A DNA stretch of 64,000 nt, from NCBI GenBank assembly GCA_036402915.1, contig DASWRY010000022.1:19629-83628 (forward strand). The letters are read 5' to 3'. The notes below the pieces were generated by a model. That model did not search any database, was not told where the DNA came from, and saw nothing but the letters and a program-made list of their open reading frames with translations. Origin of the DNA: Mycobacteriales bacterium (GTDB lineage Bacteria > Actinomycetota > Actinomycetes > Mycobacteriales > HKI-0501). The translations under genes and the position numbers were made by a program. Shown here in pieces: positions 37,635 through 59,510 of this stretch (position 1 is the first letter of the stretch; each line of letters opens with the position of its first letter).

Positions 37635-40535
37635 TCAGCGCTGCGGGTTGATCACCACCGTGAACGCCGCCGTGGCATCGGCCGGCGCCGCGTCCAGCCC
37701 GCCGTACCGGCCTCCCGGCACGGGACCACCCGAGTCCGCGGCCAGCGACCCCGCCGCGCTCCCGCGGGACGTCAGCCCCTGCGGCGCAGCCCCGGCCGAC
37801 CCACCGGCCCAGTACGACACGACCCACGCCCCGGGCCCGGCCACGTCCACGCTCGGCGTCGTCGTGCCGGACGCGGACGTCACCTGCGGATCCGAGCCGT
37901 CCGTCCCGGCGTACGCGAGGAGCAGACCGCCGGCCCCGGCGGGCAGCGACACCGCGGAACCGGCGTCCGCGGCCACGGCCACCCGGTGGTAGACGGCGGT
38001 CGTGCCACTGTGGTCCAGCTGCCGCCACCCCGTCACGTCGGCGACCGGGTCCGCGGTCAGGAACAGCAGCAGGCTGTCGCCCGGCCGCACCGTGTCCGGA
38101 ACGGTGACGTGCGCCGTGGTGCCGCCGTCGTCGGCAGCCACCGGGGCGACGTCCCGGAACGCCACCGCGCCGGTCGGGGACTCGACCACCACGTCCTTGC
38201 CGACCGTGCCGGTGAGTCCGCCCGCGTCCGTGACGGTGAGGCGGACCGGGAAGGTGCCGTCTGCCGGGAACGTGTGCTCGGCGCCCGCGCCCGTCCCGGT
38301 CGACCCGTCGCCGAAGTCCCAGGTGTACGTCTCGAGCGGTCCCGACCCGGTGGACGACGTCGCGTCGAACCGGCACGCCCGGCCGGTGCAGTCCGCGGAG
38401 AACGCCGCGACCGGTGCGCGACCGGGCGCCACCTCGACCTGCCGGGTCGCCGACCCGGAACGGCCCTCGCCGTCGGTGGCGCGGAGGGTCACGGTGTACG
38501 TCCCCGCGGCCGTGTAGGTGTGGGTCGCCTGCGGGGTGGCCGCCGTGCCGCCGTCCCCGAAGTCCCACCGGTACGACCGCCCCGCGGCCCCTGCCGCGTC
38601 GGCAGCCCTGCCCGAGGCGTCGGCCGTGAACCGGCACTCGAGGGCAGCACAGTCCGCGCCCAGCGCCACGTCGAGCGGCGACACGCCCGCCGCCGCGGCG
38701 GACCGGACGAACAGCGCCCGCGCGCGCCAGTCCCTGCCGTCGACGGCAGGACCGGACAGCACGGTGGCCACCCCGGTGGCCCGGAACGGCGCCGCGCGCA
38801 GCGTGCCGGTGTCGTCGGCCCACAGCACCTGGTCACCCGCGCGCGTGAGGCCGGCGACGTGGTCCCAGTCCACACCGGCGACGTCGGCCGTGAACCGCTC
38901 GGCGCCGACAACGCCGCTCTCGGGCGTGAAGTAGCGGTAGTACAGGTTCGAGTCGCCCGAGCGGGTGTAGTAGAGACGGCCCGCATCGAAGAACATCCCC
39001 GTGGCGTCGCGCAGCTCCGTCGCGAAGTCCGTGAGCCCGTGCAGGTCGACCGTCTCCACCGCGCCGAGCGTGCGGCCGTCGAAGGACCGCTTCCGCAGCG
39101 TGCCGTCCGCGTTCCCGGTCCACAGGATGTCGTCGGTCATGAAGGCGCCCCGCACGCCCTCGAACCCGCCGACCGGCAGGCTGACGTCCGGCCCCGTCCC
39201 CGGGGTCCGGGCCGCGTCCACGTGCCGGTACAGCAGGCCGTCGCCGTTCGCGCCCGGGGCGAGCGGACCGGCGGCGAACACGTCGTTCGGCAGGGCCGCG
39301 ACGGCGTCGGCGGGCAGCGCGGAGACGAGCGGCACGAACGCCAGCCGGTTGCGGCCGCCCGAGCTGTCGGCGCCGACCCACAGGCCGGTCGCCGTCGGGT
39401 ACAGCACGCGTGCCGCGGCACCACGGGTGGCGGGCGGGCTCCACGAGAGCGGCAGGCCGTTGCGCGGGTCCAGGGCCGCGACACCCGGACGGGACACCGC
39501 GCCGGGCCCGGCCGTGCCCTCTCCCGCCGGGTTGTCGAGCCACCGCTGACGGCCCCCGACGTACACCGCGGACCCGGTGACCGTGACGGCCTGCAGGGCG
39601 TCGCCACCGGTGCGGGCGACCCAGGTGGGGCCGCGCGCCGCCCGAGCGGGATCCCAGCGGGCTGCCGTGCCGCACAGCGTGTCCGGGGCGGTACCGCCGC
39701 CGGTCACGACCGTGAAGTACGTGCCGTCGGGCGCGTACGCCACGTCCTGCACCGACGACTCGCCCGCACAGCGGGCCCCGTACCGATCCGTCGACCACGG
39801 CAGCACCGAGGCGGACGGGCCGGACAGGTCGATCAGCGCGACGCGCGTGCGGGAGGCACCGCCGACCGAGGTGAAGTCACCGACCGCCGCCAGGCTGCCG
39901 CCGTCCGGCGCGACGTCCAGCGCCGTGACCCCCGCGGCGCCGCCACCGCCGCCGAAGGACAGGCCGAAGAACGGGTCGGCCGCGCCCGTGTCGGGATCCA
40001 GCGACATCATCCCGCCGGTGAAGTCGCCGCCGAGGTACAGGCGCTTCCCCGCCATTCCCACGTCGTTCACGTCGCCGTCGAGGACCGGCGCGGTGAAGCC
40101 GGGGACGGCCTTCCCGGTGGCGAGGTCCAGCCGCGCGAGGCCGCGGGAGGCCTCGCCGTTGACCGTGCCGAAGGCGCCCGCCGCGTACACCGACCTGCCG
40201 TCCGGGGACGGGAGCAGTGCCGACACGGCACCGTCGAGGACCGGCGCGAAACCGGGATCGACCGCACCGGTCCTCGCGTCGAACGCCATGAGGTTGTCGC
40301 GGTGGTACGTCAGCGACTCGTCGGGTGACGCGGCCGACCGGAAGCTGCCGCCCACGAGGACGACCGAACCGATCTGGGCGAGCGCCAGCACGTTGCCGTC
40401 CGCGATGCGGGGCGTGACGGGCTGCACCTCGCCGGTCTGGGTGGCCTGGACGGACACGACGCCGGACCACGTCAGGGTGCCGGCACACGCGAGCACCAGC
40501 GCGGCGACGCCCACTGCCCACCGGATGCTTTTCAC
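37635..40535 (-). CDS. secreted 967-aa protein: signal peptide, beta-propeller-type repeats, two PKD domains, unknown C-terminal domain
   Basis: GTG at 40535 lies 6 nt after AAGGGAGG. The signal reads KSIRWAVGVAALVLACAG. There are reiterated ...DG..vY.GG.F..v.G..r..la.ld..tG... blades. The two PKD-like modules are YRWDFGDGGTA...THTYTAAGTYTVTLRATDGEG and YTWDFGDGSTG...EHTFPADGTFPVRLTVTDAGG. Confidence 0.75.
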   Translation of the reverse strand: MKSIRWAVGVAALVLACAGTLTWSGVVSVQATQTGEVQPVTPRIADGNVLALAQIGSVVLVGGSFRSAASPDESLTYHRDNLMAFDARTGAVDPGFAPVLDGAVSALLPSPDGRSVYAAGAFGTVNGEASRGLARLDLATGKAVPGFTAPVLDGDVNDVGMAGKRLYLGGDFTGGMMSLDPDTGAADPFFGLSFGGGGGAAGVTALDVAPDGGSLAAVGDFTSVGGASRTRVALIDLSGPSASVLPWSTDRYGARCAGESSVQDVAYAPDGTYFTVVTGGGTAPDTLCGTAARWDPARAARGPTWVARTGGDALQAVTVTGSAVYVGGRQRWLDNPAGEGTAGPGAVSRPGVAALDPRNGLPLSWSPPATRGAAARVLYPTATGLWVGADSSGGRNRLAFVPLVSALPADAVAALPNDVFAAGPLAPGANGDGLLYRHVDAARTPGTGPDVSLPVGGFEGVRGAFMTDDILWTGNADGTLRKRSFDGRTLGAVETVDLHGLTDFATELRDATGMFFDAGRLYYTRSGDSNLYYRYFTPESGVVGAERFTADVAGVDWDHVAGLTRAGDQVLWADDTGTLRAAPFRATGVATVLSGPAVDGRDWRARALFVRSAAAAGVSPLDVALGADCAALECRFTADASGRAADAAGAAGRSYRWDFGDGGTAATPQATHTYTAAGTYTVTLRATDGEGRSGSATRQVEVAPGRAPVAAFSADCTGRACRFDATSSTGSGPLETYTWDFGDGSTGTGAGAEHTFPADGTFPVRLTVTDAGGLTGTVGKDVVVESPTGAVAFRDVAPVAADDGGTTAHVTVPDTVRPGDSLLLFLTADPVADVTGWRQLDHSGTTAVYHRVAVAADAGSAVSLPAGAGGLLLAYAGTDGSDPQVTSASGTTTPSVDVAGPGAWVVSYWAGGSAGAAPQGLTSRGSAAGSLAADSGGPVPGGRYGGLDAAPADATAAFTVVINPQR

Positions 40536-40618: not shown

Positions 40619-41647
40619 CTAGCCCACTCCCGATGGCGGCGGCGCTCTCAGCCGGGGCTCGCCGACGAGGGCCCGGAAGGCGTGCAGCGCGTCCGGCGAG
40701 GAGTCGACCGCGAAGTCGTACCCGGCCGGCCCGTCCTGCCGCGCGCTGAAGTACACGAGCGCCCTGATCTGCGGGTACGCCGGCACGTACGCGTGGGCCT
40801 CGCGGAACCACGCGGCCTTCTCGCCCGGGTACCCCTCGCGGACCCCGAACTCGCCCAGCATCACCGGCCGGGGGTGGCTCGCGGCCCACCGCATGAACGG
40901 GGTCATCACGCGGGAGAACCCGAGCATCTGGGATCCCGCGTATGCGTCGGCGCAGATCCAGTCGACCTGACCGTCGCCGGGGTAGTAACGCTGGGCGCGT
41001 CCGTCGGCGAACCCCGTCGCGAGCGGGCACCACACCCAACCGGCGTTGGTGGCACCTGCCGCGCCGAAGATCGCCCGGACGTGCTTCCACGCCGCGACGA
41101 AGTCCTCCGGGGAGTGCACCGTGTCCTGGAGGTTCGGCCGGTCCATCTCCCAGCGGAACCGCAGCAGGATCGGGACGCGGAGCGCGCGCACCGCGTCCGC
41201 GCGGGCGCGGATCAGCGGGTCGTACACGCCGCGGGCGATCGCGCGGGTGTCCGCGCCGGACCAGGACAGGAGCAGCAGCTTCCCCTGCCGGACGAACGTC
41301 AGGTCGACCCCGTCCGGGAACGGGTCCTCCCACCGGTGGAACACGTGCGCGATCGTGAGCGGGCGGCCGATCAGCTGCTCGAAGTCGCCGACCGCGGTCA
41401 CGCGCCCGTCCGGCGTCTGGTCACCGGAATTCACCCAGGCGCCGATCCAGGCGCCGTCGGCCGGAGGGGCGGGACCCCGGCCGGTCGTGCCGACCGGGCC
41501 GGTACGGGCGGGTGCGCTCGTGTCGGCGGGGACCGGCGTGCCGCCACCCGTGGGAGCAGCGCGCCCGTGGCCGCCGCCGGTGCACGCGGTCAGCAGGGCA
41601 CACACCAGCAGGATCGCCGTTGCGCCGCCAAGGGTCTGAACCCTCAT
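40619..41647 (-). CDS. GH26-like (clan GH-A) glycoside hydrolase lipoprotein
   Basis: ATG at 41647. The lipobox reads LLTAC. LRFRWEMD resembles the GH26 acid/base region, and PVMLGEFGV resembles the nucleophile region. Confidence 0.55.
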   Translation of the reverse strand: MRVQTLGGATAILLVCALLTACTGGGHGRAAPTGGGTPVPADTSAPARTGPVGTTGRGPAPPADGAWIGAWVNSGDQTPDGRVTAVGDFEQLIGRPLTIAHVFHRWEDPFPDGVDLTFVRQGKLLLLSWSGADTRAIARGVYDPLIRARADAVRALRVPILLRFRWEMDRPNLQDTVHSPEDFVAAWKHVRAIFGAAGATNAGWVWCPLATGFADGRAQRYYPGDGQVDWICADAYAGSQMLGFSRVMTPFMRWAASHPRPVMLGEFGVREGYPGEKAAWFREAHAYVPAYPQIRALVYFSARQDGPAGYDFAVDSSPDALHAFRALVGEPRLRAPPPSGVG

Positions 41648-41870: not shown

Positions 41871-43403
41871 TCAGGTCCTCCGCCGCAGTGCGCGCAGCGC
41901 CGACAGGCGGAGCGCGTCCCGGGCCGCCCACAGCCCCGCCGCGTACAGCACCCCACCGGCCACCGTGCTCCCCACCAGGACGGGCAGCGACCGTCCGAGC
42001 ACGAGCGCGGCCGCTCCGGGTACCGCCCCGAACGCCAGTACCGCCAGCACCCCGGCCGCCGCCGTCCCGCGCCCGAACGGGTGCAGGCCGAGCGACCAGC
42101 CGAGCTGCGCCAGTGGCACGAGGTTGTTCACCGCGATCGCCGCCGCCCACGCGACCGCGGCCCCGAGGATGCCGAGCCGGGGTATCAGCAGCAGGTTCAG
42201 CACCACGTTCACCACCAGGGCTCCCGCGGCGTTGCCCAGTGTCCACGTCGTGCGGCCCGCCATGTTGAGGACGATGTCGACCATCCCGCACCCGGTCGCG
42301 ACGAGCATCGTCAACGCGAGCAGCACCATCACCGGCTCACCCGCGCCGTAGCCGCGACCGAAGATCGCGAGGACGTACGGCGAGTACAGCGCGAACAACA
42401 GGTACAGCGGCCAGGTGAGCAGCATCAGCCACGCCGTCGCGGTCCGGTACAGCTCCCCCGCCGCCGCGCGGTCCCCCAGTGCGAACAGGGTGCCGAACCG
42501 GTGCTGGACGCCGGTCCCGAGCGCCTGCCCGCCGAGCTGGCCGAAGACGAGGAACCGCGTGGCCGCCGTGTAGACCCCCGCCGCGGCGGGGCCGGCGAGC
42601 GCCGCCAGGAGCACGATGTCGAGGCGCTGCAACGCGAGCTGGGCGACGCTCCCGAGCGCCCGGGGAGCGGTGAACGTCCAGAAACCGTCACCCCCCTCCG
42701 CCCGGGGAGCGGTGAACGCCCGGAAACCGTCACCCCCCTCCCCGGCACCTCGCGCGACCGGCATCAGCCGCCGCAGCCACACCACCGCCACGACCACGGC
42801 CACGAGGTACGGCCCGGCCCAGGCCAGCGGCAGCGTCACCGACACGGCCCACCCCGCGCCGAGCGCCACCACCCCGCCGAGCACCTGGAGGGCCGGCCGG
42901 CCGATCCTGTCCACCACGACGAGGGGCCGCACCCGCCCGCACCCCCACGCCGCCGCGAGGAACAGGTCGGACAGCGCCGCCGGCGGCACGAACACCGCCA
43001 GCACCCGGAGCGGCGCCACCCCTGCCGTGCCGGCGCCGATCACCGCCGCGACGCGGGGCGCGGCCACGAACAGGGCCGTCCCGAGCGCCACCGCCACCGT
43101 CGCGACCGGGACCGTCGCCGTCCGCAGCGTCGGCCACAGCAGCTCCGGCGAGCCCAGGGCCCGGTGCCGGGAGAAGAAGTACACGACACCGGTACCCGTG
43201 CCGAGCCGTGCGACCGTGTACAGCAGCACGAACACCGACGTGGCCGCGAAGAAGACCCCCGCGGTGTCCCGGTCGACGCCCCGCGTGACGAGCACGGTGA
43301 ACGCCGCACCCAGCACCGCGGAGGCCACCGCGCCCACGACGCCCAGCGTGCTGCTGCGTGCGGCGTTCCCGAGGTCGGTCCCGGTCAGCGCTCCCGCCGC
43401 CAC
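41871..43403 (-). CDS. polysaccharide/oligosaccharide flippase (Wzx, MOP superfamily)
   Basis: GTG at 43403 lies 7 nt after GGGGAGGA. There are about 12-14 hydrophobic segments. The C-terminal half pattern (GYGAGEPVMVLLALTML...NLLLIPRLGILGAAVAWA) is typical of Polysacc_synt-type flippases. Confidence 0.75.
   Translation of the reverse strand: MAAGALTGTDLGNAARSSTLGVVGAVASAVLGAAFTVLVTRGVDRDTAGVFFAATSVFVLLYTVARLGTGTGVVYFFSRHRALGSPELLWPTLRTATVPVATVAVALGTALFVAAPRVAAVIGAGTAGVAPLRVLAVFVPPAALSDLFLAAAWGCGRVRPLVVVDRIGRPALQVLGGVVALGAGWAVSVTLPLAWAGPYLVAVVVAVVWLRRLMPVARGAGEGGDGFRAFTAPRAEGGDGFWTFTAPRALGSVAQLALQRLDIVLLAALAGPAAAGVYTAATRFLVFGQLGGQALGTGVQHRFGTLFALGDRAAAGELYRTATAWLMLLTWPLYLLFALYSPYVLAIFGRGYGAGEPVMVLLALTMLVATGCGMVDIVLNMAGRTTWTLGNAAGALVVNVVLNLLLIPRLGILGAAVAWAAAIAVNNLVPLAQLGWSLGLHPFGRGTAAAGVLAVLAFGAVPGAAALVLGRSLPVLVGSTVAGGVLYAAGLWAARDALRLSALRALRRRT
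42658..42741 (-). repeat. 42-nt in-frame tandem duplication inside the flippase gene
   Basis: 42658-42699 versus 42700-42741 show 40/42 identity. They encode ...GEGGDGFRAFTAPRAEGGDGFWTFTAPRA... in the central loop. Confidence 0.9.
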
Positions 43404-50021: not shown

Positions 50022-50471
50022 GTGGTCATGCTCTTCGTCGGTTCGAGCGGCGGCCACCTGGCGCAACTGCTGGCCCTCCGCCCGTGGTGGGAGGACCGGG
50101 AACGGTACTGGGTCACGTTCCGGACCCCGGACGCCGAGTCGCTCCTCGCGGGCGAGCACGTCGACTGGGCGTACCACCCCACCACCCGCAACGTCCACAA
50201 CCTGCTGCGCAACACCGTCCTGGCGCGCAGGGTCCTCCGCCGCCGGCATCCCGACGCGATCGTCTCGACGGGCGCGGCGGTGGCGCTGCCGTTCTTCGTG
50301 CTGGGCCGCCTGGCCCGCATCCCCACCGTGTACCTCGAGGTCTGCGACCGGATCGAGACGCCGACGCTGACGGCCCGGCTCTGCCGTCCGTTCACCACCG
50401 CGATGCTGGTGCAGTGGGAGGAGCAGCAGGCGCTGTACCCCGGGTCCACCGTCGTCGGACGGCTGCTGTGA
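50022..50471 (+). CDS. Alg14-like / PssD-type glycosyltransferase membrane-associated subunit
   Basis: GTG at 50022 lies 7 nt after GGGAGG. Seen: LFVGSSGGHLAQLL..., HPDAIVSTGAAVALPFF and VYLEVCDRIETPTLTARL, matching the Alg14/PssD pattern. Confidence 0.75.
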   Translation: MVMLFVGSSGGHLAQLLALRPWWEDRERYWVTFRTPDAESLLAGEHVDWAYHPTTRNVHNLLRNTVLARRVLRRRHPDAIVSTGAAVALPFFVLGRLARIPTVYLEVCDRIETPTLTARLCRPFTTAMLVQWEEQQALYPGSTVVGRLL

Positions 50472-52812: not shown

Positions 52813-52863
52813 CCCCCATGTCATACTGGTTGAGTAGGAAACCACCGCCCCGAGGAGTCCCGC

Positions 52864-54048
52864 TTGTCCGACGTCACGCTCGACGGTGCCGCCCTGGACG
52901 ACCTCGAACTGCTCCTCGGCGGCGCGTACGCGCCCCTGGACCGGTACCTCTCCGACGCGGAGGCAGCGGCCGGCACGCTGCCCGACGGGACCCCCGTCCC
53001 GCTCCGGCTGACGCGCCCGGCCGAGGGCGAGGCCGTCCTGCGAGACCCGGAGGGCGCGCCGGTGGCCCGGCTCTGCGCGGACGGCCGCGTCGAGGCGGTC
53101 GCGCCGCGGGAGGTCGTCACGTTCGGCCGGCTGCGGCGTCCCGCCCGGGAGGTCGCGGCGGAGGTCACCGGCCCCGTGCTCGGGGTACCGGTCGACGGGC
53201 CGCTCTCCCGCCGCGCGCTGGACCGGATCACGGCGGCCGGACTGCCGGTGCTGCTGCTCCCGCTCGTCGGCGCCGACCGGCACGGCGACCCCGACGCGCT
53301 GATCCGGATGACGCTCGCCGCCGCCGGGGAGCTGCCGGAGGGCACGCGCGTCGTCGCGGTGCCCCTGTCCCGGCGCCCCGAGCCGGTCGAGTCCCTGCTG
53401 CGCGCGCACGTGGCCGCGGCGTACGGCGCGACCGAGGTGCTGTCCCCCGCCGGTGACGACCCGTCCCCCGACTACCCCGCCGCGATCGCCGCGGAGCTCG
53501 CGCGTCCGCGCGGGCTGACCGTGTTCTTCACCGGCCTCTCGGGCTCCGGCAAGTCCACCGTCGCCCGCGCGCTGGCCGGGCGTCTCGCCGAGCGCGGCGA
53601 CCGCACGGTGAGCCTGCTCGACGGTGACGTGGTCCGCCGCAGCCTGTCCGCGGGCCTCGGGTTCTCCCGGGAGGACCGGGACCGCAACGTCACCCGCATC
53701 GGCTGGGTGGCCGCCGAGGTCACCCGGCACGGCGGGCTCGCGATCTGCGCGCCGATCGCCCCGTACGCGTCGGTGCGCGCGGAGGTCCGGCGCCTCGTCG
53801 AGCGGTACGGCGACTTCGTGCTGGTCCACGTGGCGACTCCGCTCGAGGAGTGCGAGCGGCGGGACCGCAAGGGCCTGTACGCGAAGGCCCGGGCCGGCGA
53901 GATCCCCGCGTTCACCGGCATCTCCGATCCGTACGAGGTACCGGACGACGCGGACCTCGCGATCGACACCACCCACCTGACCGTTGCCGAGGCGACCGAG
54001 GCCGTGCTGCGGCTGCTCGTCGACCGCGGCCTGCTGCGGGAGAGCTGA
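52864..54048 (+). CDS. cysC: adenylyl-sulfate (APS) kinase with N-terminal degenerate ATP-sulfurylase-like domain
   Basis: TTG at 52864 lies 7 nt after GAGGAG. The N-terminal ~200 aa follow a Sat pattern (DLELLLGGAYAPLDRYL; LLLPLVGADRHGD). VDGPLSRRAL replaces the QxRNPxHRxH loop. The C-terminal half has FTGLSGSGKST, LDGDVVR and FSREDRDRN. Confidence 0.8.
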   Translation: MSDVTLDGAALDDLELLLGGAYAPLDRYLSDAEAAAGTLPDGTPVPLRLTRPAEGEAVLRDPEGAPVARLCADGRVEAVAPREVVTFGRLRRPAREVAAEVTGPVLGVPVDGPLSRRALDRITAAGLPVLLLPLVGADRHGDPDALIRMTLAAAGELPEGTRVVAVPLSRRPEPVESLLRAHVAAAYGATEVLSPAGDDPSPDYPAAIAAELARPRGLTVFFTGLSGSGKSTVARALAGRLAERGDRTVSLLDGDVVRRSLSAGLGFSREDRDRNVTRIGWVAAEVTRHGGLAICAPIAPYASVRAEVRRLVERYGDFVLVHVATPLEECERRDRKGLYAKARAGEIPAFTGISDPYEVPDDADLAIDTTHLTVAEATEAVLRLLVDRGLLRES

Positions 54049-54050
54049 CC

Positions 54051-55019
54051 GTGGACTGGACGATGGCCGTGGCAGGCTTCGTCGTCGGCATCGTCGTGGG
54101 GCTGACGGGCATGGGCGGCGGCGCGCTGATGACGCCGATGCTCGTGCTCGTGTTCGGCATCCAGCCGCTCGCCGCGGTGTCGTCGGACCTCCTGGCGTCG
54201 TTCGTCATGAAGCCCGTCGGCAGCCTCGTGCACCTCCGCCGCGGCACGGTGCACCTGAAGATGGTCGGCTGGCTCATGCTCGGCTCGGTGCCGTCGGCCT
54301 TCGTGGGCGTGCTGATCCTCAAGACGCTCGGCGACAGCGCCGGGGTGCAGTCCGCCGTGAAGATCGCCCTCGGCGTCGCCCTGCTGCTGGCGACGGCCGG
54401 GCTGATCGGCAAGGCGTACCTGCAGATGCGCGACACGGCCCGGCGCCGCCGCGGGGAGCTGCCGCCCGCGCCCCCCGCGAACGCTCCCGTGCCAGTCCGC
54501 CCGCTCGCGACCGTGCTCGTCGGCGTCCTCGGCGGCCTGGTCGTCGGCATGACGTCGGTCGGCTCCGGGTCGCTGATGATCATCGCGCTGATGGCGCTGT
54601 ACCCCGCGCTCTCCGCGTCGCGCCTCGTCGGGACGGACCTGGTCCAGGCCGTGCCGCTGGTGGGCGCGGCCGCGTTCGGGCACGCGATGTTCGGCGACCT
54701 GCAGCTCGACGTCACCGGGGCGCTGCTCGTCGGTGCGATCCCGGGCGTGTACCTGGGCTCGCGGATCTCCTCCCGCGCGCCGCAGGGCGTCGTCCGGCGG
54801 GCCCTGACCCTCGTGCTGATCGCCTCGGGCCTCAAGCTCCTCGGCGTCGGCACGGTCGCGCTCGGCTGGGCGCTCCTCGCGGTGTGCGTGGCCGGGCCGC
54901 TGCTGTGGGGCTGGGCACGCACGCGCCAGGGCCTGGCGCCGCTGGCCCGCCTCGAGCGGCGCGGACCCGTGGGCGCGGCACACTCCAGAGACGACCAGGC
55001 CCCGGTCACCACACGGTGA
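54051..55019 (+). CDS. TauE/SafE family sulfite/organosulfonate-type anion exporter (DUF81)
   Basis: GTG at 54051 lies 2 nt after the cysC stop. There are two repeated halves with GLTGMGGGALMTP and GMTSVGSGSLMI motifs and about 8 TM segments. Confidence 0.8.
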   Translation: MDWTMAVAGFVVGIVVGLTGMGGGALMTPMLVLVFGIQPLAAVSSDLLASFVMKPVGSLVHLRRGTVHLKMVGWLMLGSVPSAFVGVLILKTLGDSAGVQSAVKIALGVALLLATAGLIGKAYLQMRDTARRRRGELPPAPPANAPVPVRPLATVLVGVLGGLVVGMTSVGSGSLMIIALMALYPALSASRLVGTDLVQAVPLVGAAAFGHAMFGDLQLDVTGALLVGAIPGVYLGSRISSRAPQGVVRRALTLVLIASGLKLLGVGTVALGWALLAVCVAGPLLWGWARTRQGLAPLARLERRGPVGAAHSRDDQAPVTTR

Positions 55020-55043: not shown

Positions 55044-56309
55044 TCAGCCCGCCTGGACCACGATCGCCGCGGCGACGGTGCGGTTGGTGGCCTCGTCCAC
55101 GAGGATGAAGCCGCCCGTGGAGCGGTTCCGGCGGTACTCGTCCACGAACAGCGGCTGGGTGGTGCGCAGGGTCACCCGGCCGATCTCGTTGAGCCGCAGT
55201 GCGCCGGGGTGCTCGTCCCGGTGCAGGGTGTTGACGTCCAGCCGGTACGCGATGTCGCGGACGACCGTGCGCACGGTCCGGGTGGTGTGCTTGAGGGTGT
55301 ACTTGCGGCCGGGCTCGAGCGCGGCCTGCTCGTCCATCCAGCAGATCATCGCCTCGACGTCCTGCGCGGAGTGCGGGGCGTTGTGCGGGCGGCAGATCAT
55401 GTCCCCCCGGGACACGTCGAGCTCGTCGGCGAGGCGTACCACGACCGACATCGGCGGGAACGCCTCGTCCACCGGCCCGTCCGCGGTGTCGATGGCCTCG
55501 ATCCGGGTGGTGAACCCGGACGGGAGCACCATCACCTCGTCGCCCGGCTTCATCACGCCACCGGCGACCGTGCCGGCGTACCCGCGGTAGTCCGGGTGGG
55601 CCGCCGACTGCGGCCGGATGACGTACTGGACCGGGAACCGGACGTCGACCAGGTTCCGGTCGGAGGCGACGTGGACGTTCTCCAGGTGGTGCAGCAGGGA
55701 CGGCCCGTCGTACCAGGGCATGTTGTCCGACCGGCTGACGATGTTGTCCCCGTGGAGCGCCGAGATCGGCAGGACCGTCAGGTCGGGCACGTCCAGCTTG
55801 GTGGCGAACGCGGTGAACTCGTCCTTGATGGCCTCGAACACGTCCTGGGAGTAGTCGACCAGGTCCATCTTGTTCACGGCCAGCACCAGGTGCGGCACCC
55901 GCAGCAGGGTGACCAGGAACGCGTGCCGCCGCGACTGCTCCACCAGCCCCTTGCGGGCGTCCACCAGCACGATGGCGAGGTCCGCGGTGGAGGCGCCGGT
56001 GACCATGTTGCGGGTGTACTGGATGTGCCCCGGGGTGTCGGCGATGACGAACTTGCGCCGCGGGGTGGCGAAGTACCGGTACGCCACGTCGATCGTGATG
56101 CCCTGCTCCCGCTCGGCCCGCAGGCCGTCGGTGAGCAACGCCAGGTTCGTGTACTCGTCGCCGCGGTCGCGGCTGGTCCGCTCCACCGCGTCCAGCTGGT
56201 CGGTGAAGATCGACTTCGAGTCGTACAGCAGACGCCCGATGAGGGTCGACTTGCCGTCGTCGACCGAGCCCGCCGTGGCGAACCGCAACATGTCCATGTC
56301 GTGAGCCAT
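55044..56309 (-). CDS. cysN: sulfate adenylyltransferase subunit 1 (GTPase), no fused APS-kinase domain
   Basis: Seen: GSVDDGKSTLIGRLL, DTPGH and NKMD. About 420 aa, ending after the EF-Tu-like beta-barrel domains. Confidence 0.9.
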   Translation of the reverse strand: MAHDMDMLRFATAGSVDDGKSTLIGRLLYDSKSIFTDQLDAVERTSRDRGDEYTNLALLTDGLRAEREQGITIDVAYRYFATPRRKFVIADTPGHIQYTRNMVTGASTADLAIVLVDARKGLVEQSRRHAFLVTLLRVPHLVLAVNKMDLVDYSQDVFEAIKDEFTAFATKLDVPDLTVLPISALHGDNIVSRSDNMPWYDGPSLLHHLENVHVASDRNLVDVRFPVQYVIRPQSAAHPDYRGYAGTVAGGVMKPGDEVMVLPSGFTTRIEAIDTADGPVDEAFPPMSVVVRLADELDVSRGDMICRPHNAPHSAQDVEAMICWMDEQAALEPGRKYTLKHTTRTVRTVVRDIAYRLDVNTLHRDEHPGALRLNEIGRVTLRTTQPLFVDEYRRNRSTGGFILVDEATNRTVAAAIVVQAG

Positions 56310-56311: not shown

Positions 56312-57217
56312 CTAGAAGTACCCCTCGCGCTTGCGGTCCTCCATGGCGGACTCGCTGACCTTGTCGTCCCCGCGGGTGGCCCCGCGTTCGGTGAGCCGGG
56401 TCGCGGCGATCTCCGCGATGACCTTCTCGGTGGTGTCCGCGTCCGAGGCCACCGCCGCGGTGAGCGTCGCGTCCCCGACCGTGCGGTAGCGCACCGACGC
56501 GGTGAACACCTCGTCACCCTCACCCGGGACCGCGAACTCGTTGGCGGCCATCAGCATCCCGTCCCGCCGGAACACCTCCCGGGTGTGCGCGAAGTAGATC
56601 GACGGGATCTCGATCCCCTCGGCGTGGATGTACTCCCAGATGTCGAGCTCGGTCCAGTTCGAGAGCGGGAACACCCGGATGCTCTCGCCCAGGTGCACCC
56701 GGCCGTTGTAGAGGTTCCACAGCTCCGGCCGCTGGTTCTTCGGGTCCCACTGGCCGAACTCGTCCCGGAAGGAGAACACCCGCTCCTTCGCCCGCGCCTT
56801 CTCCTCGTCGCGGCGCGCACCCCCGAACAGCGCGTCGAACCGGTGCTTCTCGGCGGCCTCGAGCAGCACCGGGGTCTGGATCCGGTTCCGCGACCCGCCC
56901 GGCTCCTCCCGCACCAGCCCCCGCTCGAGCGCCTCGGGCACGCTGGCCACGATCAGCTGCACGCCCAGCTCGGCGACCCGCTTGTCGCGGAACTCGAGCA
57001 CCTCGGGGAAGTTGTGCCCGGTGTCCACGTGCATCACCGGGAACGGGATCGGCGCCGGCGCGAACGCCTTCTCGGCGATCCGCAGCATCACGATCGAGTC
57101 CTTGCCGCCGGAGAACAGCAGGCACGGACGCTGCATCTCCGCCGCGACCTCACGGAAGACGTGGACCGCCTCGGCCTCGAGGGTGTCCAGCTGGCTGAGC
57201 CGGTAGTTCGATGTCAT
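56312..57217 (-). CDS. cysD: sulfate adenylyltransferase subunit 2
   Basis: Seen: LLFSGGKDSIVML (PP-loop), HVDTGHNFPE and PLSNWTELDIW. The start overlaps the cysQ stop (ATGA). Confidence 0.9.
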   Translation of the reverse strand: MTSNYRLSQLDTLEAEAVHVFREVAAEMQRPCLLFSGGKDSIVMLRIAEKAFAPAPIPFPVMHVDTGHNFPEVLEFRDKRVAELGVQLIVASVPEALERGLVREEPGGSRNRIQTPVLLEAAEKHRFDALFGGARRDEEKARAKERVFSFRDEFGQWDPKNQRPELWNLYNGRVHLGESIRVFPLSNWTELDIWEYIHAEGIEIPSIYFAHTREVFRRDGMLMAANEFAVPGEGDEVFTASVRYRTVGDATLTAAVASDADTTEKVIAEIAATRLTERGATRGDDKVSESAMEDRKREGYF

Positions 57218-57999
57218 CGGGGGTACTGGTCTCTCATCCGGTCGAGGAGCGCGTCGGCGACCGGCGCCGCGGCGACGAGCAGGTCGGGCAGGAGCGGGTC
57301 GGGCTGGTTGTACCGGAGCGGCGAACCGTCGAGGCGGCAACATCGCAGGCCCGCGGCCACGGCCACGGCGACCGGCGCGGCGGAGTCCCACTCGTACTGG
57401 CCGCCGCCGTGCACGTACGCGTCGACCTCGCCGAGGACGACGGCGGACACCTTCACCCCGGCGGACCCCATCGGCACCAGCTCGGCGCCGAGGTCCCCGG
57501 CCAGCGCGGCGACGAACTCGGGTGGGCGGGTGCGGCTCACCGCCAGGCGGAGGGGGCCGTCGGCGCGCGGCGGCACCACCGGCGGGGCGTCGGTCGCGAG
57601 CGTGGTGCCGCGCGCGGGCATCGCCACGGCGCCGGCGGTCAGCGAGCCGCCGGACCACAGCGCCACGTGGACAGCCCAGTCGCTGCGGCCCTCCTCGGAG
57701 AACTCCCGCGTGCCGTCGAGCGGATCCACGATCCACACCCGGTCGGCCGACACCCGGCCCGCCGGGTCGGCGCCCTCCTCGGACAGCACCGCGTCGCCGC
57801 GGCACAGCTCCGCGAGCCGGGCCACCAGGTACTCGTGCGCGGCCCGGTCCCCCGCCGCCTTCAGTGCGGCCGGGTCCGCGAAGCCCACGTCGGCCCGCAC
57901 CCGGAGCAGGAGCGCGCCCGCCTCGTCCGCGAGCCGCCGGGCGAGCGCAGCGTCACCTGCGACACGACCGAGCGGTCGTGTCGTCGGATCGGTCTGCAT
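57214..57999 (-). CDS. cysQ: 3'(2'),5'-bisphosphate nucleotidase (PAP phosphatase, inositol monophosphatase family)
   Basis: Seen: EEGA..., WIVDPLDGTREF and YEWDSAAP. The ATG overlaps the stop of the upstream sugar transferase (TGATG). Confidence 0.75.
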   Translation of the reverse strand: MQTDPTTRPLGRVAGDAALARRLADEAGALLLRVRADVGFADPAALKAAGDRAAHEYLVARLAELCRGDAVLSEEGADPAGRVSADRVWIVDPLDGTREFSEEGRSDWAVHVALWSGGSLTAGAVAMPARGTTLATDAPPVVPPRADGPLRLAVSRTRPPEFVAALAGDLGAELVPMGSAGVKVSAVVLGEVDAYVHGGGQYEWDSAAPVAVAVAAGLRCCRLDGSPLRYNQPDPLLPDLLVAAAPVADALLDRMRDQYPR

Positions 58000-59510
58000 C
58001 AGTAGGCCCCCGAGGTCCTGACCAGGGCGGTGATCGTGCGGAGCAGGATCACCAGGTCGAATGTCAGCGACCAGTTTTCCACGTACCGCAGGTCGAGTCG
58101 CACGGAGTCCTCCCACGAGAGGTCCGAACGGCCGCTGACCTGCCACAACCCGGTCAGTCCGGGCTTCACCACGAGCCGCCGGCGGACGTCCTCCGGGTAC
58201 TGCGCCACCTCGCACGGCAGGGGCGGGCGCGGCCCCACCAGGCTCATCTGGCCGCGCAGGACGTTGAGGAACTGCGGGAGCTCGTCCAGGGAGTAGCGGC
58301 GGAGCCACCGGCCCAGAGGCGTGACGCGGGGGTCGTCCCGCATCTTGAACAGCACGCCGTCGGCCTCGTTGTGCCCGTTCAGCTCCTCCTGGTGCTCCTC
58401 CGCGCCGGAGTACATCGTCCGGAGCTTGTAGAGCACGAACTCGCGCCCGTCCTTCCCCACCCGGACCTGCCGGAAGAATGCGGGACCCGGGGTCGCCCGC
58501 CGTACGACGAGGGCCAGGACGAGGAGCAGCGGCCCGGCGACGAGCAGCGCGAGCGCCGCGAGGACCCGGTCGAACATGCCCTTGAGCAGCCGCCGGCTCC
58601 CGGACAGCTCGGCGTGCTCGACGTGCAGCATCGGCAGGCCGTCCACCGGCCGGATCGTGGTCCGGGGCCCCGCGACGTCGAGGAGCGCGGTGGCGACCAC
58701 GAGGTCGGTACCGGTCCGCTCGAGCGCCCAGGTCAGCCGGCGCAGGGCGTTCGCGTCCATCTCCGGGCAGGCGAGGACCGCCACGGTGTCGGCCCCGGAT
58801 TCCCGCACCGCCCGGTCCACGTCGTCGAACGTGCCGAACACGGCCACGTCCACGTCCACCATCCGCTCTCGCTGCGGCCGGTGCGGCGGCAGGCACGCGC
58901 CCACGATCTCCATGCCGTGGTACCGCTCGTGGCGGAGCTGGCGGCAGAAGTTCGCGGCCGCCCGTTCGTACCCGAGCACGACCACGCGCCGCATGCACTC
59001 CCCGCGGTTGCGCAGCCGGAACAGCCGCCGCCGCAGGGCGAAGCGGGCGGCGAGCCCGCCCACCGTGAGCAGCGGCAGCGCGACGAACACGTAGCCGCGG
59101 GCGATCTGGAGGTCGGCGGCGTACGACACGATCGCGAACGCCGCGGTCAGCCCGACACCGGCGTTGAGCACCCGGCGGTACTCCTCGTTGCCGACGAAGA
59201 GGAAGCGCCGCTCGTACGCGTGCGCGAGCAGCAGCGCCACCGTCCAGCCGAGCGGCAGGAGCAGGCTCACGGCGACGTACGGCTCGCTGGCCGGTGTGAT
59301 GCGCCAGAACCGGGCGGCGAACGCCACCACGCCCGCGAGGACGCCCGCCCCGACGTCCACGGCGGCGGCCTGCGCGAGGTAGGCCCGTTGCCACGAGCCC
59401 CCGGCCCGGGCAGCGTGCCGCGCCAGCGCGCCGACGCGGAGATCCCCCCGCCTGTGCTCCCCCGGCCGTGCCGCCGGTCTCTCCGGTTCCGCGACGCCGA
59501 ACGTCGTCAC
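57999..59510 (-). CDS. polyprenyl-phosphate glycosyl-1-phosphate transferase (WbaP/CpsE-type priming enzyme)
   Basis: GTG at 59510 lies 6 nt after GGAGGGGG. Four to five N-terminal TM segments and a central Rossmann-like region precede the Bac_transf domain (FRQVRVG, YKLRTM, DELPQFLNVLRGQMSLVGPRP). Confidence 0.85.
   Translation of the reverse strand: MTTFGVAEPERPAARPGEHRRGDLRVGALARHAARAGGSWQRAYLAQAAAVDVGAGVLAGVVAFAARFWRITPASEPYVAVSLLLPLGWTVALLLAHAYERRFLFVGNEEYRRVLNAGVGLTAAFAIVSYAADLQIARGYVFVALPLLTVGGLAARFALRRRLFRLRNRGECMRRVVVLGYERAAANFCRQLRHERYHGMEIVGACLPPHRPQRERMVDVDVAVFGTFDDVDRAVRESGADTVAVLACPEMDANALRRLTWALERTGTDLVVATALLDVAGPRTTIRPVDGLPMLHVEHAELSGSRRLLKGMFDRVLAALALLVAGPLLLVLALVVRRATPGPAFFRQVRVGKDGREFVLYKLRTMYSGAEEHQEELNGHNEADGVLFKMRDDPRVTPLGRWLRRYSLDELPQFLNVLRGQMSLVGPRPPLPCEVAQYPEDVRRRLVVKPGLTGLWQVSGRSDLSWEDSVRLDLRYVENWSLTFDLVILLRTITALVRTSGAY

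What the first reader, a model, noticed from the sequence alone, without database searches (positions are those of the whole stretch)
37635..59510. Self-sufficient sulfated-glycan assembly island: Wzx/Wzy pathway plus two sulfotransferase domains plus a private PAPS synthesis and recycling module
Seen in the sequence, the island holds three groups of genes.

Assembly machinery:
- a priming phosphoglycosyl transferase
- a split Alg14/Alg13-type GT, a GT2 and a GT14
- a Wzx flippase, a Wzy-like polymerase and a Wzz/PCP protein

PAPS metabolism:
- cysD and cysN (APS synthesis)
- a two-domain cysC (APS to PAPS)
- cysQ (removal of the PAP by-product)
- a TauE-family anion exporter

Modifying and extracellular functions:
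- two sulfotransferase domains with intact 5'-PSB and 3'-PB motifs
- an APH-like kinase
- a GH26-like lipoprotein and a large secreted propeller/PKD protein

Established knowledge: mycobacteria and many other actinobacteria reduce APS directly (CysH is an APS reductase). APS kinase and PAPS are therefore dispensable for cysteine synthesis and serve sulfotransferases, as in M. tuberculosis sulfolipid biosynthesis. Rhizobia likewise keep a dedicated nodPQ copy of cysDN for Nod-factor sulfation.

Inference: no sulfate-reduction genes (cysH, sirA, cysK) lie in the island, and the priming transferase is translationally coupled to cysQ-cysD-cysN. Together these point to a dedicated pathway for a sulfated, possibly also phosphorylated, cell-surface or secreted polysaccharide.

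To my knowledge, characterised bacterial sulfated glycoconjugates are mainly mycobacterial sulfolipids, rhizobial Nod factors/LPS/capsules and cyanobacterial sulfated EPS. I am not aware of a characterised actinobacterial Wzx/Wzy sulfated polysaccharide locus with this composition. That statement is from memory and is not the result of a search.
Basis: partly seen in the sequence, partly recalled or inferred. Interest (0 to 1): 0.85.

Follow-up and report, generated by a model that had tools for sequence, protein, structure and literature searches.

The report
Actinobacterial sulfated-glycan locus with PAPS supply
This is a real 22-kb gene cluster in an uncultured actinobacterium that most likely builds a sulfated surface or secreted polysaccharide and carries its own genes for making and recycling the sulfate donor PAPS. 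A related cluster was described genetically in Actinoplanes in 2026, and the core cassette is widespread in the phylum.

Summary
Three needed profile or fold searches: GT14, the APH-like kinase and GH26.

Both sulfotransferase domains keep their PAPS-binding and catalytic residues, which are invariant across about 60 homologues each.

The novelty claim is not.

- The core cassette is GH26, Wzx, ST, kinase, Wzy, PCP, then ST and GT2. It has the gene order of the wps-1 cluster of Actinoplanes missouriensis (AEM, June 2026). There, knockouts distort sporangia and a sulfated EPS was predicted but not shown chemically.
- Relatives of the sulfotransferase occur in at least 580 species-level genomes.
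- The locus often lies next to pth, as it does here, so it is an old chromosomal locus and not a mobile island.
- Polysaccharide or glycoside clusters with their own PAPS genes are already known (Vibrio CPS, saccharomicin).

What is distinctive here:
- a complete sulfate-to-PAPS-to-AMP module, including a PGT-cysQ-cysD-cysN operon that recurs in other lineages;
- an Alg13-sulfotransferase fusion;
- an explanation for the "unexpected" ΔAMIS_7390 phenotype in the Actinoplanes paper.

Whether cysDN is a private second copy cannot be tested from this window.

The parts
57999..59360 (-). Priming polyprenyl-phosphate hexose-1-phosphate transferase (large WbaP/WcaJ-type PGT). It is the first gene of the PGT-cysQ-cysD-cysN operon. 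An alternative start lies at 59510.
   Evidence: Bac_transf 219 bits and TIGR03025 404 bits. About 5 hydrophobic segments. The stop codon overlaps the cysQ start.
57214..57999 (-). CysQ, a 3'-phosphoadenosine-5'-phosphate (PAP) phosphatase. It removes the sulfotransferase by-product.
   Evidence: Full-length match to M. tuberculosis CysQ 5DJF, E 3e-71. The ATG overlaps the PGT stop codon as TGATG. There is a 4-nt ATGA overlap with cysD (coordinates).
56312..57217 (-). CysD, the small subunit of ATP sulfurylase (sulfate + ATP to APS).
   Evidence: TIGR02039 435 bits, NF003587 451 bits.
55044..56309 (-). CysN, the GTPase subunit of ATP sulfurylase. It has no fused APS-kinase domain.
   Evidence: TIGR02034 579 bits. 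The protein is 421 aa and matches only the GTPase part of the CysNC model.
54051..55019 (+). TauE/TSUP-family permease. It is most plausibly the sulfate importer for the module; export is not excluded.
   Evidence: TauE 148 bits. Multiple TM segments. It starts 2 nt after the cysC stop codon. The TSUP-family CysZ is the sulfate transporter of C. glutamicum.
52864..54048 (+). Two-domain APS kinase (CysC). It has a truncated, degenerate ATP-sulfurylase-like N-domain (about residues 1-215) and an intact APS kinase domain (216-394).
   Evidence: APS_kinase 191 bits. The N-domain gives only weak PUA_2 and ATP-sulfurylase matches and has no QxRNPxH motif. It is 46% identical, E 1e-97, to the Actinoplanes tereljensis protein that occupies the AMIS_7390 position. 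That protein's best PDB hit is 3CR8.
51916..52812 (+). GT2 glycosyltransferase. It corresponds by position to WpsA.
   Evidence: Glycos_transf_2 79 bits. Present in 85 of 86 related loci.
50468..51919 (+). Fusion protein. The N-terminal half is Alg13/PssE-type (the catalytic half of a split GT). The C-terminal half is a Sulfotransfer_3-type sulfotransferase that matches the free-standing sulfotransferase at the WpsB position in Actinoplanes-type loci.
   Evidence: Glyco_tran_28_C 45 bits and Sulfotransfer_3 51 bits. PssE and WelK matches. AF2 pLDDT 93.7; Foldseek hits TPST1/2 and CurM/OLS sulfotransferases, plus GT-B C-terminal domains. 5'-PSB G186/R189/S190/G191/T193 and 3'-PB R336 are invariant in 57 sequences.
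50022..50471 (+). Alg14/PssD/Cps14F-type partner subunit of the split GT.
   Evidence: Alg14 33 bits; NF041549 PssD 105 bits. 4-nt overlap with the fusion gene.
48977..49876 (+). GT14-family (core-2/xylosyltransferase-like) glycosyltransferase. It is an accessory gene, present in 14 of 86 related loci.
   Evidence: No Pfam hit. The profile hits XylT1 at E 4e-16 and C2GnT at E 4e-14, and the catalytic SPxE motif aligns.
46920..48845 (-). Polysaccharide co-polymerase (Wzz N-domain, 2 TM segments). It carries a degenerate BY-kinase-like P-loop domain and a Pro-rich repeat tail.
   Evidence: Wzz 31 bits; TIGR01006/01005/01007 partial matches. The sequence lacks a GK[ST] Walker A motif and a Tyr cluster. 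18-bp repeat at 47160-47241.
45498..46823 (-). Wzy-like polymerase (O-antigen ligase/polymerase superfamily).
   Evidence: Wzy_C 24 bits, below the cut-off. About 10 hydrophobic segments. Conserved in 68 of 86 loci in the same position as WpsJ.
44272..45501 (-). APH/FN3K-fold small-molecule kinase, at the WpsI position. It probably phosphorylates a sugar hydroxyl of the repeat unit. A (PPG)n linker lies near the N-terminus.
   Evidence: Invariant K97, K114, E128, H239-G-D241, N246, D258, E260. AF2 pLDDT 88.8; Foldseek top hits are APH(3')-IIa, FN3K and maltokinase. The upstream extension matches the family N-terminus, and GTGA overlaps the Wzy stop codon.
43385..44275 (-). Sulfotransfer_1-type sulfotransferase, heparan-sulfate 3-OST-like, at the WpsH position.
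   Evidence: PF00685 55 bits. PDB hits are 3RNL (E 9e-21) and 3-OST-1/3/5. R57, G59, E111, R140, P142, R145 and S148 are invariant or near-invariant in 61 homologues.
41871..43421 (-). Wzx flippase (MOP superfamily).
   Evidence: Polysacc_synt and MatE. Many TM segments. Conserved in 63 of 86 loci.
40619..41647 (-). GH26 lipoprotein, at the WpsE position. It is an extracytoplasmic glycanase that probably trims or releases the polymer.
   Evidence: The profile hits Lic26A (beta-1,3-1,4-glucanase) at E 2e-49. Catalytic E96 and E195 are invariant. Signal peptide plus lipobox LLTAC.
37635..40589 (-). Secreted or anchored 984-aa protein. It has a DUF5122 ('delta-60 repeat') beta-propeller, a second region, 2 PKD domains and an unassigned C-terminal domain. 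It is a recurrent accessory of the cassette.
   Evidence: PKD_4 122 bits. Weak DUF5122 hit; homologues carry PF17164. N-terminal hydrophobic segment. Propeller homologues lie next to the cassette in 21 of 86 loci.

Best explanation
The locus encodes a Wzx/Wzy-dependent pathway for a sulfated heteropolysaccharide, together with the metabolism that supplies and recycles its sulfate donor.

Shown by sequence: the gene families, the intact catalytic motifs, the operon structure, and conservation across lineages.

Inferred order of events:
1. The TSUP/TauE permease brings in sulfate.
2. CysDN makes APS, the two-domain CysC converts it to PAPS, and CysQ hydrolyses the PAP by-product. PAP would otherwise inhibit the sulfotransferases.
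3. The PGT puts a hexose-1-phosphate on undecaprenyl phosphate.
4. The split Alg14 + Alg13 transferase (PssDE/Cps14FG/WelK type) adds a beta-1,4-linked second sugar. GT2 and GT14 add further residues.
5. Both sulfotransferases lack signal peptides and TM segments. One is fused to the Alg13 half and so is held at the same membrane-associated complex. Together with the APH-fold kinase they modify the lipid-linked repeat unit in the cytoplasm.
6. Wzx flips the anionic unit, Wzy polymerises it, and the PCP sets chain length.
7. The GH26 lipoprotein and the secreted propeller/PKD protein process or bind the polymer outside the cell.

The locus is a vertically inherited member of a phylum-wide cassette. 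Its Actinoplanes version (wps-1) is needed for the sporangium matrix.
For: Family assignments.

Sulfotransferase integrity:
- ST1 aligns with 3-OST-1 through the PSB loop, the catalytic Glu and the 3'-PB motif. These residues are invariant in 61 homologues.
- The ST2 PSB loop (GRSGST) and 3'-PB (RD...S) are invariant in 57 sequences. Its fold matches TPST and CurM sulfotransferases.

Cytoplasmic location of the sulfotransferases, the kinase and the GTs.

Translational coupling:
- PGT/cysQ (TGATG), cysQ/cysD (ATGA), cysC/TauE (2-nt gap);
- Wzy/kinase/ST1 (GTGA overlaps) and Alg14/fusion/GT2.

Co-inheritance:
- The PGT-cysQ-cysD-cysN block is linked to the cassette in L007, L033, L034, L039, L064, L070, L075 and L084.
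- 33 of 86 related loci carry at least one PAPS-metabolism gene within 10 kb.
- The whole locus is syntenic in a MAG whose fusion protein is 84% identical.

Genetics in a related cluster: all wps-1 genes except wpsD are needed for normal sporangia. Deleting the adjacent AMIS_7390 gene (sulfate adenylyltransferase/APS kinase family) gives a severe sporangium defect with normal growth. The congener locus L086 shows that this gene is the counterpart of the window's cysC.

Precedents for cluster-encoded PAPS supply: Vibrio CPS and Sam35 in saccharomicin.

In M. tuberculosis, APS goes to the reductive branch and PAPS goes to sulfotransferases.
Against: - No chemistry exists for any member of the cassette. 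The Actinoplanes authors state that sulfation awaits verification.
- The Wzy assignment is below Pfam's threshold. The Wzy_C superfamily also contains ligases.
- The kinase substrate is unknown.
- The direction of TauE transport is unknown. TauE was found next to the cassette only in the window and in L084.
- Most related loci (53 of 86) have no PAPS gene within 10 kb, so the cassette can run on PAPS genes located elsewhere.
- Whether this MAG has another cysDN, and which type of CysH it has, is unknown. The module could therefore also serve cysteine synthesis.
- The PCP kinase-like domain looks inactive.
Confidence: 0.75

Rival explanations
1. The cysD, cysN, cysC, cysQ and TauE genes are the organism's ordinary and only sulfate-activation genes. 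They happen to sit beside a polysaccharide cluster. The glycan may still be sulfated, but the PAPS module is not private.
For: Only 64 kb of the genome is visible, and no second copy can be looked for. 53 of 86 related loci have no PAPS gene nearby, so the cassette does not need its own copies. Actinobacteria that use APS reductase need CysDN for cysteine synthesis anyway.
Against: cysQ-cysD-cysN is translationally coupled to the priming glycosyltransferase. The same four-gene block recurs with the cassette in 8 other loci from different lineages. No reductive genes (cysH, sir, cysK) were found in the window. Deleting the cluster-adjacent APS-kinase-family gene in Actinoplanes affects sporangia, not growth.
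Confidence: 0.2
2. The Wzy_C-family protein is a ligase or oligosaccharyltransferase rather than a polymerase. In that case a short sulfated oligosaccharide is attached to a protein, a lipid or the cell wall, and no long EPS is made.
For: The Wzy_C match is weak (24 bits), and that Pfam family is named for O-antigen ligases. The PCP's kinase-like domain is degenerate.
Against: A PCP with a Wzz domain is conserved next to it in 65 of 86 loci. A dedicated glycanase (GH26) argues for a polymer substrate. In Actinoplanes the cluster is tied to a bulk matrix material.
Confidence: 0.1
3. The sulfotransferases act on a non-glycan substrate (lipid, peptide or metabolite), and their position in the polysaccharide cluster is incidental.
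For: The closest structural neighbours of ST2 are tyrosylprotein and polyketide (CurM/OLS) sulfotransferases, not carbohydrate sulfotransferases.
Against: ST2 is fused in-frame to a glycosyltransferase half in at least 120 protein clusters. ST1 is most similar to carbohydrate (heparan sulfate) sulfotransferases. Both are embedded by overlapping start and stop codons in operons with Wzx, Wzy and GTs. Both are conserved with the cassette across the phylum.
Confidence: 0.04

Closest known systems
Actinoplanes missouriensis wps-1 cluster (AMIS_7280-7380, WpsA-K) plus AMIS_7390 (Tezuka & Ohnishi, AEM 2026, PMC13390465)
   Same: - The block and its order are the same: PCP, Wzy, kinase-like, Sulfotransfer_1 ST, Wzx, then GH26, then a Sulfotransfer_3-type ST and GT2.
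- Congener loci L073 and L086 show 35-54% identity for these 8 proteins.
- An APS-kinase gene with a degenerate Sat-like N-domain lies next to the cluster.
- The predicted product is a sulfated EPS made by the Wzx/Wzy route.
   Different: - The window has an Alg14 + Alg13 split GT, with the sulfotransferase fused to Alg13, where wps-1 has GT26 (WpsC).
- It has a GT14.
- It lacks the methyltransferase (WpsF) and DUF4262 (WpsD).
- It carries its own PGT, cysQ, cysD, cysN and a TauE permease, and a propeller/PKD protein.
- The Actinoplanes paper did not connect AMIS_7390 with PAPS supply.
- The host here is an uncultured Mycobacteriales MAG and is not known to form sporangia.
Synechocystis xss (synechan) cluster (Maeda et al., eLife 2021, PMC8205485)
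   Same: A Wzx/Wzy/PCP cluster with two sulfotransferases of different subfamilies and several GTs. In this case the product has been shown chemically to be a sulfated EPS.
   Different: It is cyanobacterial and plasmid-borne. The paper mentions no PAPS genes in the cluster. It has no kinase, no GH26 and no GT-ST fusion. Sequence orthology was not tested here.
Vibrio sp. KMM 8419 sulfated CPS locus (PMC11641403)
   Same: Second copies of cysD, cysN and cysC sit inside a polysaccharide cluster together with sulfotransferases. [quoted passage not shown]
   Different: It is Gram-negative and uses ABC-transporter (Kps) export. cysQ does not occur in the paper's text. It has no sulfate permease. 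Its gene families are unrelated.
M. tuberculosis sulfation branch (CysD, CysNC, CysQ, Stf sulfotransferases) and saccharomicin Sam10/Sam35
   Same: In actinobacteria, PAPS serves sulfotransferases rather than cysteine synthesis. The window's CysQ is a close homologue of Mtb CysQ. Sam35 is a cluster-encoded APS kinase that boosts PAPS for a sugar sulfotransferase.
   Different: The products there are sulfolipids or an oligosaccharide antibiotic, not Wzx/Wzy polymers. In Mtb, CysC is fused to CysN; here it is fused to a degenerate Sat-like domain.
Two-domain hexameric APS kinase of Thiobacillus denitrificans (PDB 3CR8; Gay, Segel & Fisher 2009, cited)
   Same: An APS kinase preceded by an ATP-sulfurylase-like domain that lacks the catalytic motifs. 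3CR8 is the best PDB hit of the Actinoplanes tereljensis counterpart, E 1e-97.
   Different: The window's N-domain is about 100 residues shorter, so it may not form the same hexamer.

Membership tests
wps-1-type actinobacterial Wzx/Wzy cluster (predicted sulfated EPS) | Contiguous block PCP-Wzy-kinase-like-Sulfotransfer_1 ST-Wzx in that order | tested here: met
   The window has this order at 48845 to 41871 on the minus strand. The same order is found in Actinoplanes loci L073 and L086 and matches the published K-J-I-H-G order.
wps-1-type actinobacterial Wzx/Wzy cluster (predicted sulfated EPS) | A second sulfotransferase of another family (WpsB type) followed by GT2 (WpsA), and a GH26 (WpsE) | tested here: met
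   The ST2 domain is 53-55% identical to the free-standing Actinoplanes sulfotransferases. GT2 is 46-47% identical and GH26 42-45% identical.
wps-1-type actinobacterial Wzx/Wzy cluster (predicted sulfated EPS) | GT26 (WpsC), methyltransferase (WpsF) and DUF4262 (WpsD) | tested here: not met
   None of these Pfam families appears among the 17 window genes. They are present in L086. This is a variable part of the family.
wps-1-type actinobacterial Wzx/Wzy cluster (predicted sulfated EPS) | The product is a sulfated polysaccharide | not testable with these tools
   This has not been shown chemically even for the reference cluster.
PAPS-dependent sulfotransferases (P-loop ST fold) | 5'-phosphosulfate-binding loop, 3'-phosphate-binding motif and a catalytic base | tested here: met
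   ST1 has QRCGTTS, RDPVERAYS and E111, which align to 3-OST-1 and are invariant in 61 sequences. ST2 has GRSGST and HLVRDxxGVAYSW, which align to CurM/OLS sulfotransferases and are invariant in 57 sequences. Its fold matches TPST/CurM.
Wzx/Wzy-dependent polysaccharide pathway | Priming PGT, MOP flippase, Wzy polymerase and PCP | tested here: met
   PGT, Wzx and PCP are above or at family thresholds. Wzy is below the Pfam cut-off but is a conserved protein of about 10 TM segments at the expected position.
Sulfate activation and PAP recycling (CysD, CysN, CysC, CysQ) | All four activities are encoded, with catalytic domains intact | tested here: met
   CysD and CysN score above the TIGRFAM cut-offs. 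APS_kinase scores 191 bits and has the Walker A motif GLSGSGKST. CysQ matches Mtb CysQ at E 3e-71.
Dedicated (second-copy) PAPS module, as nodPQ or Vibrio CPS cysDNC | A separate housekeeping cysDN and an APS-type CysH exist elsewhere in the same genome | not testable with these tools
The indirect support is operon coupling and co-inheritance.
Two-domain APS kinase with inactive Sat-like domain (3CR8 type) | An N-terminal ATP-sulfurylase-like domain lacking the catalytic motifs, plus an active APS kinase domain | tested here: inconclusive
   The kinase domain is clear. The N-domain gives only weak PUA_2 and ATP-sulfurylase matches and is about 100 residues shorter than in L086 and 3CR8.
Horizontally acquired genomic island | Compositional deviation, integrase or tRNA at the borders, and absence from relatives at that site | tested here: not met
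   GC is 0.72-0.77 throughout. The only tRNAs are at 17.3 kb and 63.8 kb. No integrase was found. The cassette lies at the same pth-adjacent position in L014, L016, L033, L034, L064, L075 and L084.
GT14 (core-2 / xylosyltransferase family) | Sequence similarity across the catalytic domain, including the catalytic Glu | tested here: met
   The profile hits XylT1 at E 4e-16 and C2GnT at E 4e-14. The invariant P227-x-E229 aligns with LLPAES of XylT1.

The most novel reading that the evidence does not exclude
Sulfated polysaccharides may not be a cyanobacterial or marine curiosity. They may be a common, ancient trait of Actinomycetota.

- On this reading, a vertically inherited cassette, often pth-adjacent, makes a sulfated and phosphorylated heteroglycan. 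It occurs in at least 580 species-level genomes, from soil Micromonosporaceae to freshwater Nanopelagicales and Acidimicrobiia.
- A glycosyltransferase-sulfotransferase fusion would sulfate the undecaprenyl-linked intermediate as it is built.
- This window would be the most self-contained version, running from sulfate uptake to PAP removal. That makes it a ready-made 22-kb unit for heterologous production.
Probability: 0.4. Interest if true: 0.7.

Novelty: new variant of a known kind. Interest (0 to 1): 0.5.

Why it matters
Bacterial sulfated polysaccharides are still described as essentially cyanobacterial, and no Gram-positive example has been shown chemically. This locus and its many relatives matter for three reasons.

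1. They make the question directly testable in culturable Micromonospora, Catellatospora and Actinoplanes strains.
2. They offer an explanation for a result the Actinoplanes authors called unexpected. The APS-kinase-family mutant has a sporangium defect because it probably starves the cluster's sulfotransferases of PAPS.
3. They offer a compact gene set that links sulfate uptake, PAPS synthesis, PAP removal, sulfation and export. Such a set is useful for engineering sulfated glycans.

The GT-sulfotransferase fusion also suggests that sulfation takes place on the lipid-linked intermediate. That has not been shown for any Wzx/Wzy system.

Tried and rejected
- **Direct Pfam and NCBIfam scans.** They gave nothing for the GT14 candidate and only sub-threshold hits for the kinase and GH26. 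Profiles built from homologues in related loci, and AF2 with Foldseek, resolved these.
- **Mobile-island reading.** Rejected. GC content is flat, there is no integrase and no flanking tRNA, and the chromosomal site is conserved.
- **Propeller domain of the PKD protein.** A profile search against PDB sequences found nothing. Its function stays unknown beyond 'DUF5122/delta-60 repeat'.
- **RNA and signal scans.** The Rfam scan found no riboswitch or other RNA in the locus. The sigma-70 promoter and terminator scan was at background level.
- **TauE distribution.** TauE was looked for in 86 related loci and found only in L084. Its link to the cassette is therefore weak outside this lineage.
- **Second cysDN copy and CysH type.** These could not be tested, because only the window is available.
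- **His/Cys cluster in ST2.** The conserved H213, C225, C227 and C234 in the ST2 domain might form a metal site.
- **A. missouriensis sequence.** It could not be fetched directly. The correspondence with wps-1 rests on congener loci L073 and L086 and on the paper's gene descriptions.

Full report
**Gene content**

The window has about 75% GC, so open reading frames appear in every frame. A codon-position GC model gave one consistent gene set. Between 37635 and 59510 it contains 17 genes in three transcription units.

- Minus strand, 48845 to 37635: PCP, Wzy-like, kinase-like, sulfotransferase 1, Wzx, GH26 lipoprotein, propeller/PKD protein.
- Plus strand, 48977 to 55019: GT14, Alg14-like, Alg13-sulfotransferase fusion, GT2, two-domain CysC, TauE.
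- Minus strand, 59360 to 55044: PGT, CysQ, CysD, CysN.

Many junctions are start/stop overlaps or gaps of 1-2 nt. These include PGT/cysQ (TGATG), cysQ/cysD (ATGA), Wzy/kinase (GTGA) and kinase/ST1.

**Family assignments**

Three needed more work.

- The 299-aa protein called GT14 has no Pfam hit even at E<=10. A profile of it and six homologues from related loci hits human xylosyltransferase 1 (E 4e-16) and C2GnT (E 4e-14), and the catalytic Glu aligns.
- The GH26 protein scores below Pfam's cut-off. As a profile it hits the C. thermocellum beta-1,3-1,4-glucanase Lic26A at E 2e-49, and both catalytic glutamates are invariant. Its true start is ATG 41647, which gives a signal peptide and the lipobox LLTAC.
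- The kinase-like protein keeps the full catalytic set (two Lys, Glu, HGDxxxxN, DWE) in 26 homologues. Its AF2 model (pLDDT 88.8) matches APH(3'), fructosamine-3-kinase and maltokinase, all of which phosphorylate sugar hydroxyls.

CysQ is a close full-length homologue of the M. tuberculosis PAP phosphatase.

**Sulfotransferases**

- ST1 aligns with heparan-sulfate 3-O-sulfotransferases through the PSB loop (QRCGTTS), the catalytic Glu (TGESSPYY) and the 3'-PB motif (RDPVERAYS). These positions are invariant or nearly so in 61 homologues.
- The C-terminal domain of the fusion carries GRSGST and HLVRDxxGVAYSW, which align with the CurM and OLS sulfotransferases. These motifs are invariant in 57 sequences. 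The domain folds like TPST and CurM sulfotransferases (pLDDT 93.7).
- Neither sulfotransferase has a signal peptide or TM segment. Sulfation must therefore happen in the cytoplasm, before Wzx flips the unit. This last step is an inference.

**PAPS module**

- CysD and CysN are canonical. CysN has no fused kinase domain.
- CysC has an intact APS-kinase domain. It is preceded by about 215 residues that give only faint PUA_2 and ATP-sulfurylase matches and lack the sulfurylase motifs.
- The longer counterpart in Actinoplanes tereljensis is 46% identical (E 1e-97). Its best PDB hit is 3CR8, the two-domain APS kinase of Thiobacillus denitrificans, whose Sat-like domain is inactive.
- TauE belongs to the TSUP family, which includes the sulfate transporter CysZ of Corynebacterium glutamicum. 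Import of sulfate is at least as plausible as export.
- No cysH, sir or cysK homologue was found among the gene calls scanned in the window.

**Genomic context**

The locus lies inside conserved actinobacterial core synteny. On one side are glmU, prs, rplY and pth. On the other are a luciferase-like gene, ppc, mfd, mazG, eno, ftsB, DUF501 and ppx. GC content is flat, there is no integrase, and the only tRNAs are far away. The source is an NCBI TPA MAG labelled Mycobacteriales bacterium.

**Relatives**

- The fusion protein has more than 120 full-length homologue clusters.
- A scan of one genome per GTDB species found 580 confirmed loci, and 80 were fetched. Six more loci came from contig look-ups.
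- tblastn of all 17 window proteins against these 86 loci shows a conserved core: ST2 86, GT2 85, kinase 70, Wzy 68, ST1 66, PCP 65, Wzx 63, Alg14 61 and GH26 43.
- Carriers include Micromonospora, Catellatospora, Actinoplanes and relatives, plus Jiangellales, Streptosporangiaceae, Acidimicrobiales and Nanopelagicales MAGs.
- In the Actinoplanes type the sulfotransferase is free-standing. Elsewhere it is fused to Alg13.
- The cassette lies next to pth in at least seven other loci from several lineages. This argues for an old, vertically inherited position.
- A Mycobacteriales MAG whose fusion protein is 84% identical has the whole locus in the same order, including cysC-TauE and cysD-cysQ-PGT-pth. 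It also has a third sulfotransferase that the window lacks.

**PAPS genes travel with the cassette in modules**

- cysQ alone is linked in about 15 Micromonospora loci.
- A Sat-like/cysC gene is linked in the Actinoplanes group.
- PGT-cysQ-cysD-cysN is linked in eight loci.
- All of these occur together only in the window and in L084.

In total, 33 of 86 loci have at least one such gene within 10 kb.

**Literature**

Tezuka and Ohnishi (AEM, June 2026) described the A. missouriensis wps-1 cluster. Its genes are WpsA (GT2), WpsB (ST), WpsC (GT26), WpsD (DUF4262), WpsE (GH26), WpsF (methyltransferase), WpsG (Wzx), WpsH (ST), WpsI (kinase-like), WpsJ (Wzy) and WpsK (Wzz). Knockouts give squashed sporangia that do not release spores. 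The authors predict a sulfated EPS but state that this awaits verification.

The order K-J-I-H-G...E...B-A is the order in the window and in the congener loci L073 and L086.

The paper also reports, as unexpected, that deleting the neighbouring AMIS_7390 gene gives a severe sporangium defect while growth is normal. AMIS_7390 belongs to the sulfate adenylyltransferase/APS kinase family. L086 shows that this neighbour is the Sat-like/APS-kinase gene corresponding to the window's cysC. The simplest reading, which the authors do not make, is that it supplies PAPS to WpsB and WpsH.

Two further precedents exist:
- Cluster-embedded cysDNC copies with sulfotransferases are proposed as a hallmark of sulfated CPS loci in Vibrio.
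- A cluster-encoded APS kinase boosts sulfation of saccharomicin in an actinomycete.

The synechan xss cluster is the chemically proven Wzx/Wzy example.

**Mechanism, verdict and open points**

The mechanism I consider most likely is set out under Best explanation.

- Shown: gene families, motifs, operon coupling, co-inheritance, and the published phenotypes in a related cluster.
- Inferred: the order of assembly, cytoplasmic modification of the lipid-linked unit, functional coupling within the GT-ST fusion, the kinase substrate, the direction of TauE transport, and the extracellular roles of GH26 and the propeller protein.

The main open point is whether cysDN here is a second copy. That needs the rest of the genome.

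The finding is real and the functional reading is sound. It is, however, a variant of a cluster type that entered the literature in 2026, and it is common in sequence databases. I therefore score interest at about 0.5 rather than 0.85.

Noticed in passing
window 45353-45437 (inside 44272-45501, minus strand): A 9-bp tandem repeat (7.6 copies) encodes a (PPG)n stretch in the N-terminal linker of the kinase-like protein. The family-conserved N-terminus (YLxEIxxxxWP) lies upstream of it. The NCBI record for the identical protein is 353 aa against the 409 aa called here, so its annotated start appears to lie downstream of the repeat.
   Followed up: partly
window 46920-48845 (minus strand); repeat at 47160-47241: The C-terminal P-loop domain of the PCP lacks the Walker A GK[S/T] motif, has altered Walker A' and B motifs and has no C-terminal tyrosine cluster. 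The protein ends in a Pro-rich 18-bp-repeat tail (PQGPVS x4). It looks like a pseudo-kinase PCP.
   Followed up: partly
window 52864-53508 (N-domain of CysC): The ATP-sulfurylase-like domain is about 100 residues shorter than in the Actinoplanes and T. denitrificans two-domain APS kinases. The related MAG L084 has a similar short form of 409 aa. Its role (oligomerisation or regulation) is unknown.
   Followed up: partly
window 50468-51919, residues H213, C225, C227, C234 of the fusion protein: A His plus three Cys in the sulfotransferase domain are invariant or nearly invariant in 57 homologues. They might form a metal site that the CurM/TPST relatives lack. Spatial proximity was not checked.
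   Followed up: no
L084 8507-9409 and L085 8408-9361; window 49877-50021: The two closest relatives carry a third, minus-strand Sulfotransfer_3 gene between GT14 and Alg14. The window has only a 145-bp gap there. Other loci (L007, L033) have two extra copies, so the number of sulfotransferases per locus ranges from 2 to 4.
   Followed up: partly
window 37635-40589, residues ~59-440; e.g. L001 14323-15645, L014 268-2412: The DUF5122 ('delta-60 repeat') beta-propeller is an uncharacterised secreted domain. It recurs next to the cassette in 21 of 86 loci, sometimes twice, and is sometimes joined to Malectin, CBM96 or PKD modules. It has no PDB sequence relative.
   Followed up: partly
window 59849-63743 and 21560-36224: The flanks reproduce the conserved actinobacterial order glmU-prs-rplY-pth ... 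mfd-mazG ... eno-ftsB-DUF501-ppx. The polysaccharide locus, a luciferase-like gene (36378-37343) and ppc (about 33.3-36.2 kb) lie between pth and mfd.
   Followed up: yes
window 4594-5493 and 20537-21508: Two diguanylate cyclase (GGDEF) genes are present, one with a PAS sensor domain. c-di-GMP often controls EPS production, but no link to the locus was examined.
   Followed up: no
window 23581-25383 (minus strand) versus 24940-25563 (plus strand): The enolase ORF as called has an N-terminal extension of about 175 aa that overlaps a hemerythrin-domain gene on the other strand. The real enolase start is probably near 24860.
   Followed up: no
L060 (MAG labelled Verrucomicrobiales): One cassette-bearing contig is attributed to Verrucomicrobiales. 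Its proteins have the same identity pattern as the Acidimicrobiales loci (L030, L037, L045). This is probably a binning error rather than transfer between phyla.
   Followed up: no
window 5827-7194 (minus strand): A PLP-dependent enzyme (PALP) with two CBS domains, like cystathionine beta-synthase. It is the only other sulfur-metabolism gene in the window and is not part of sulfate reduction.
   Followed up: no
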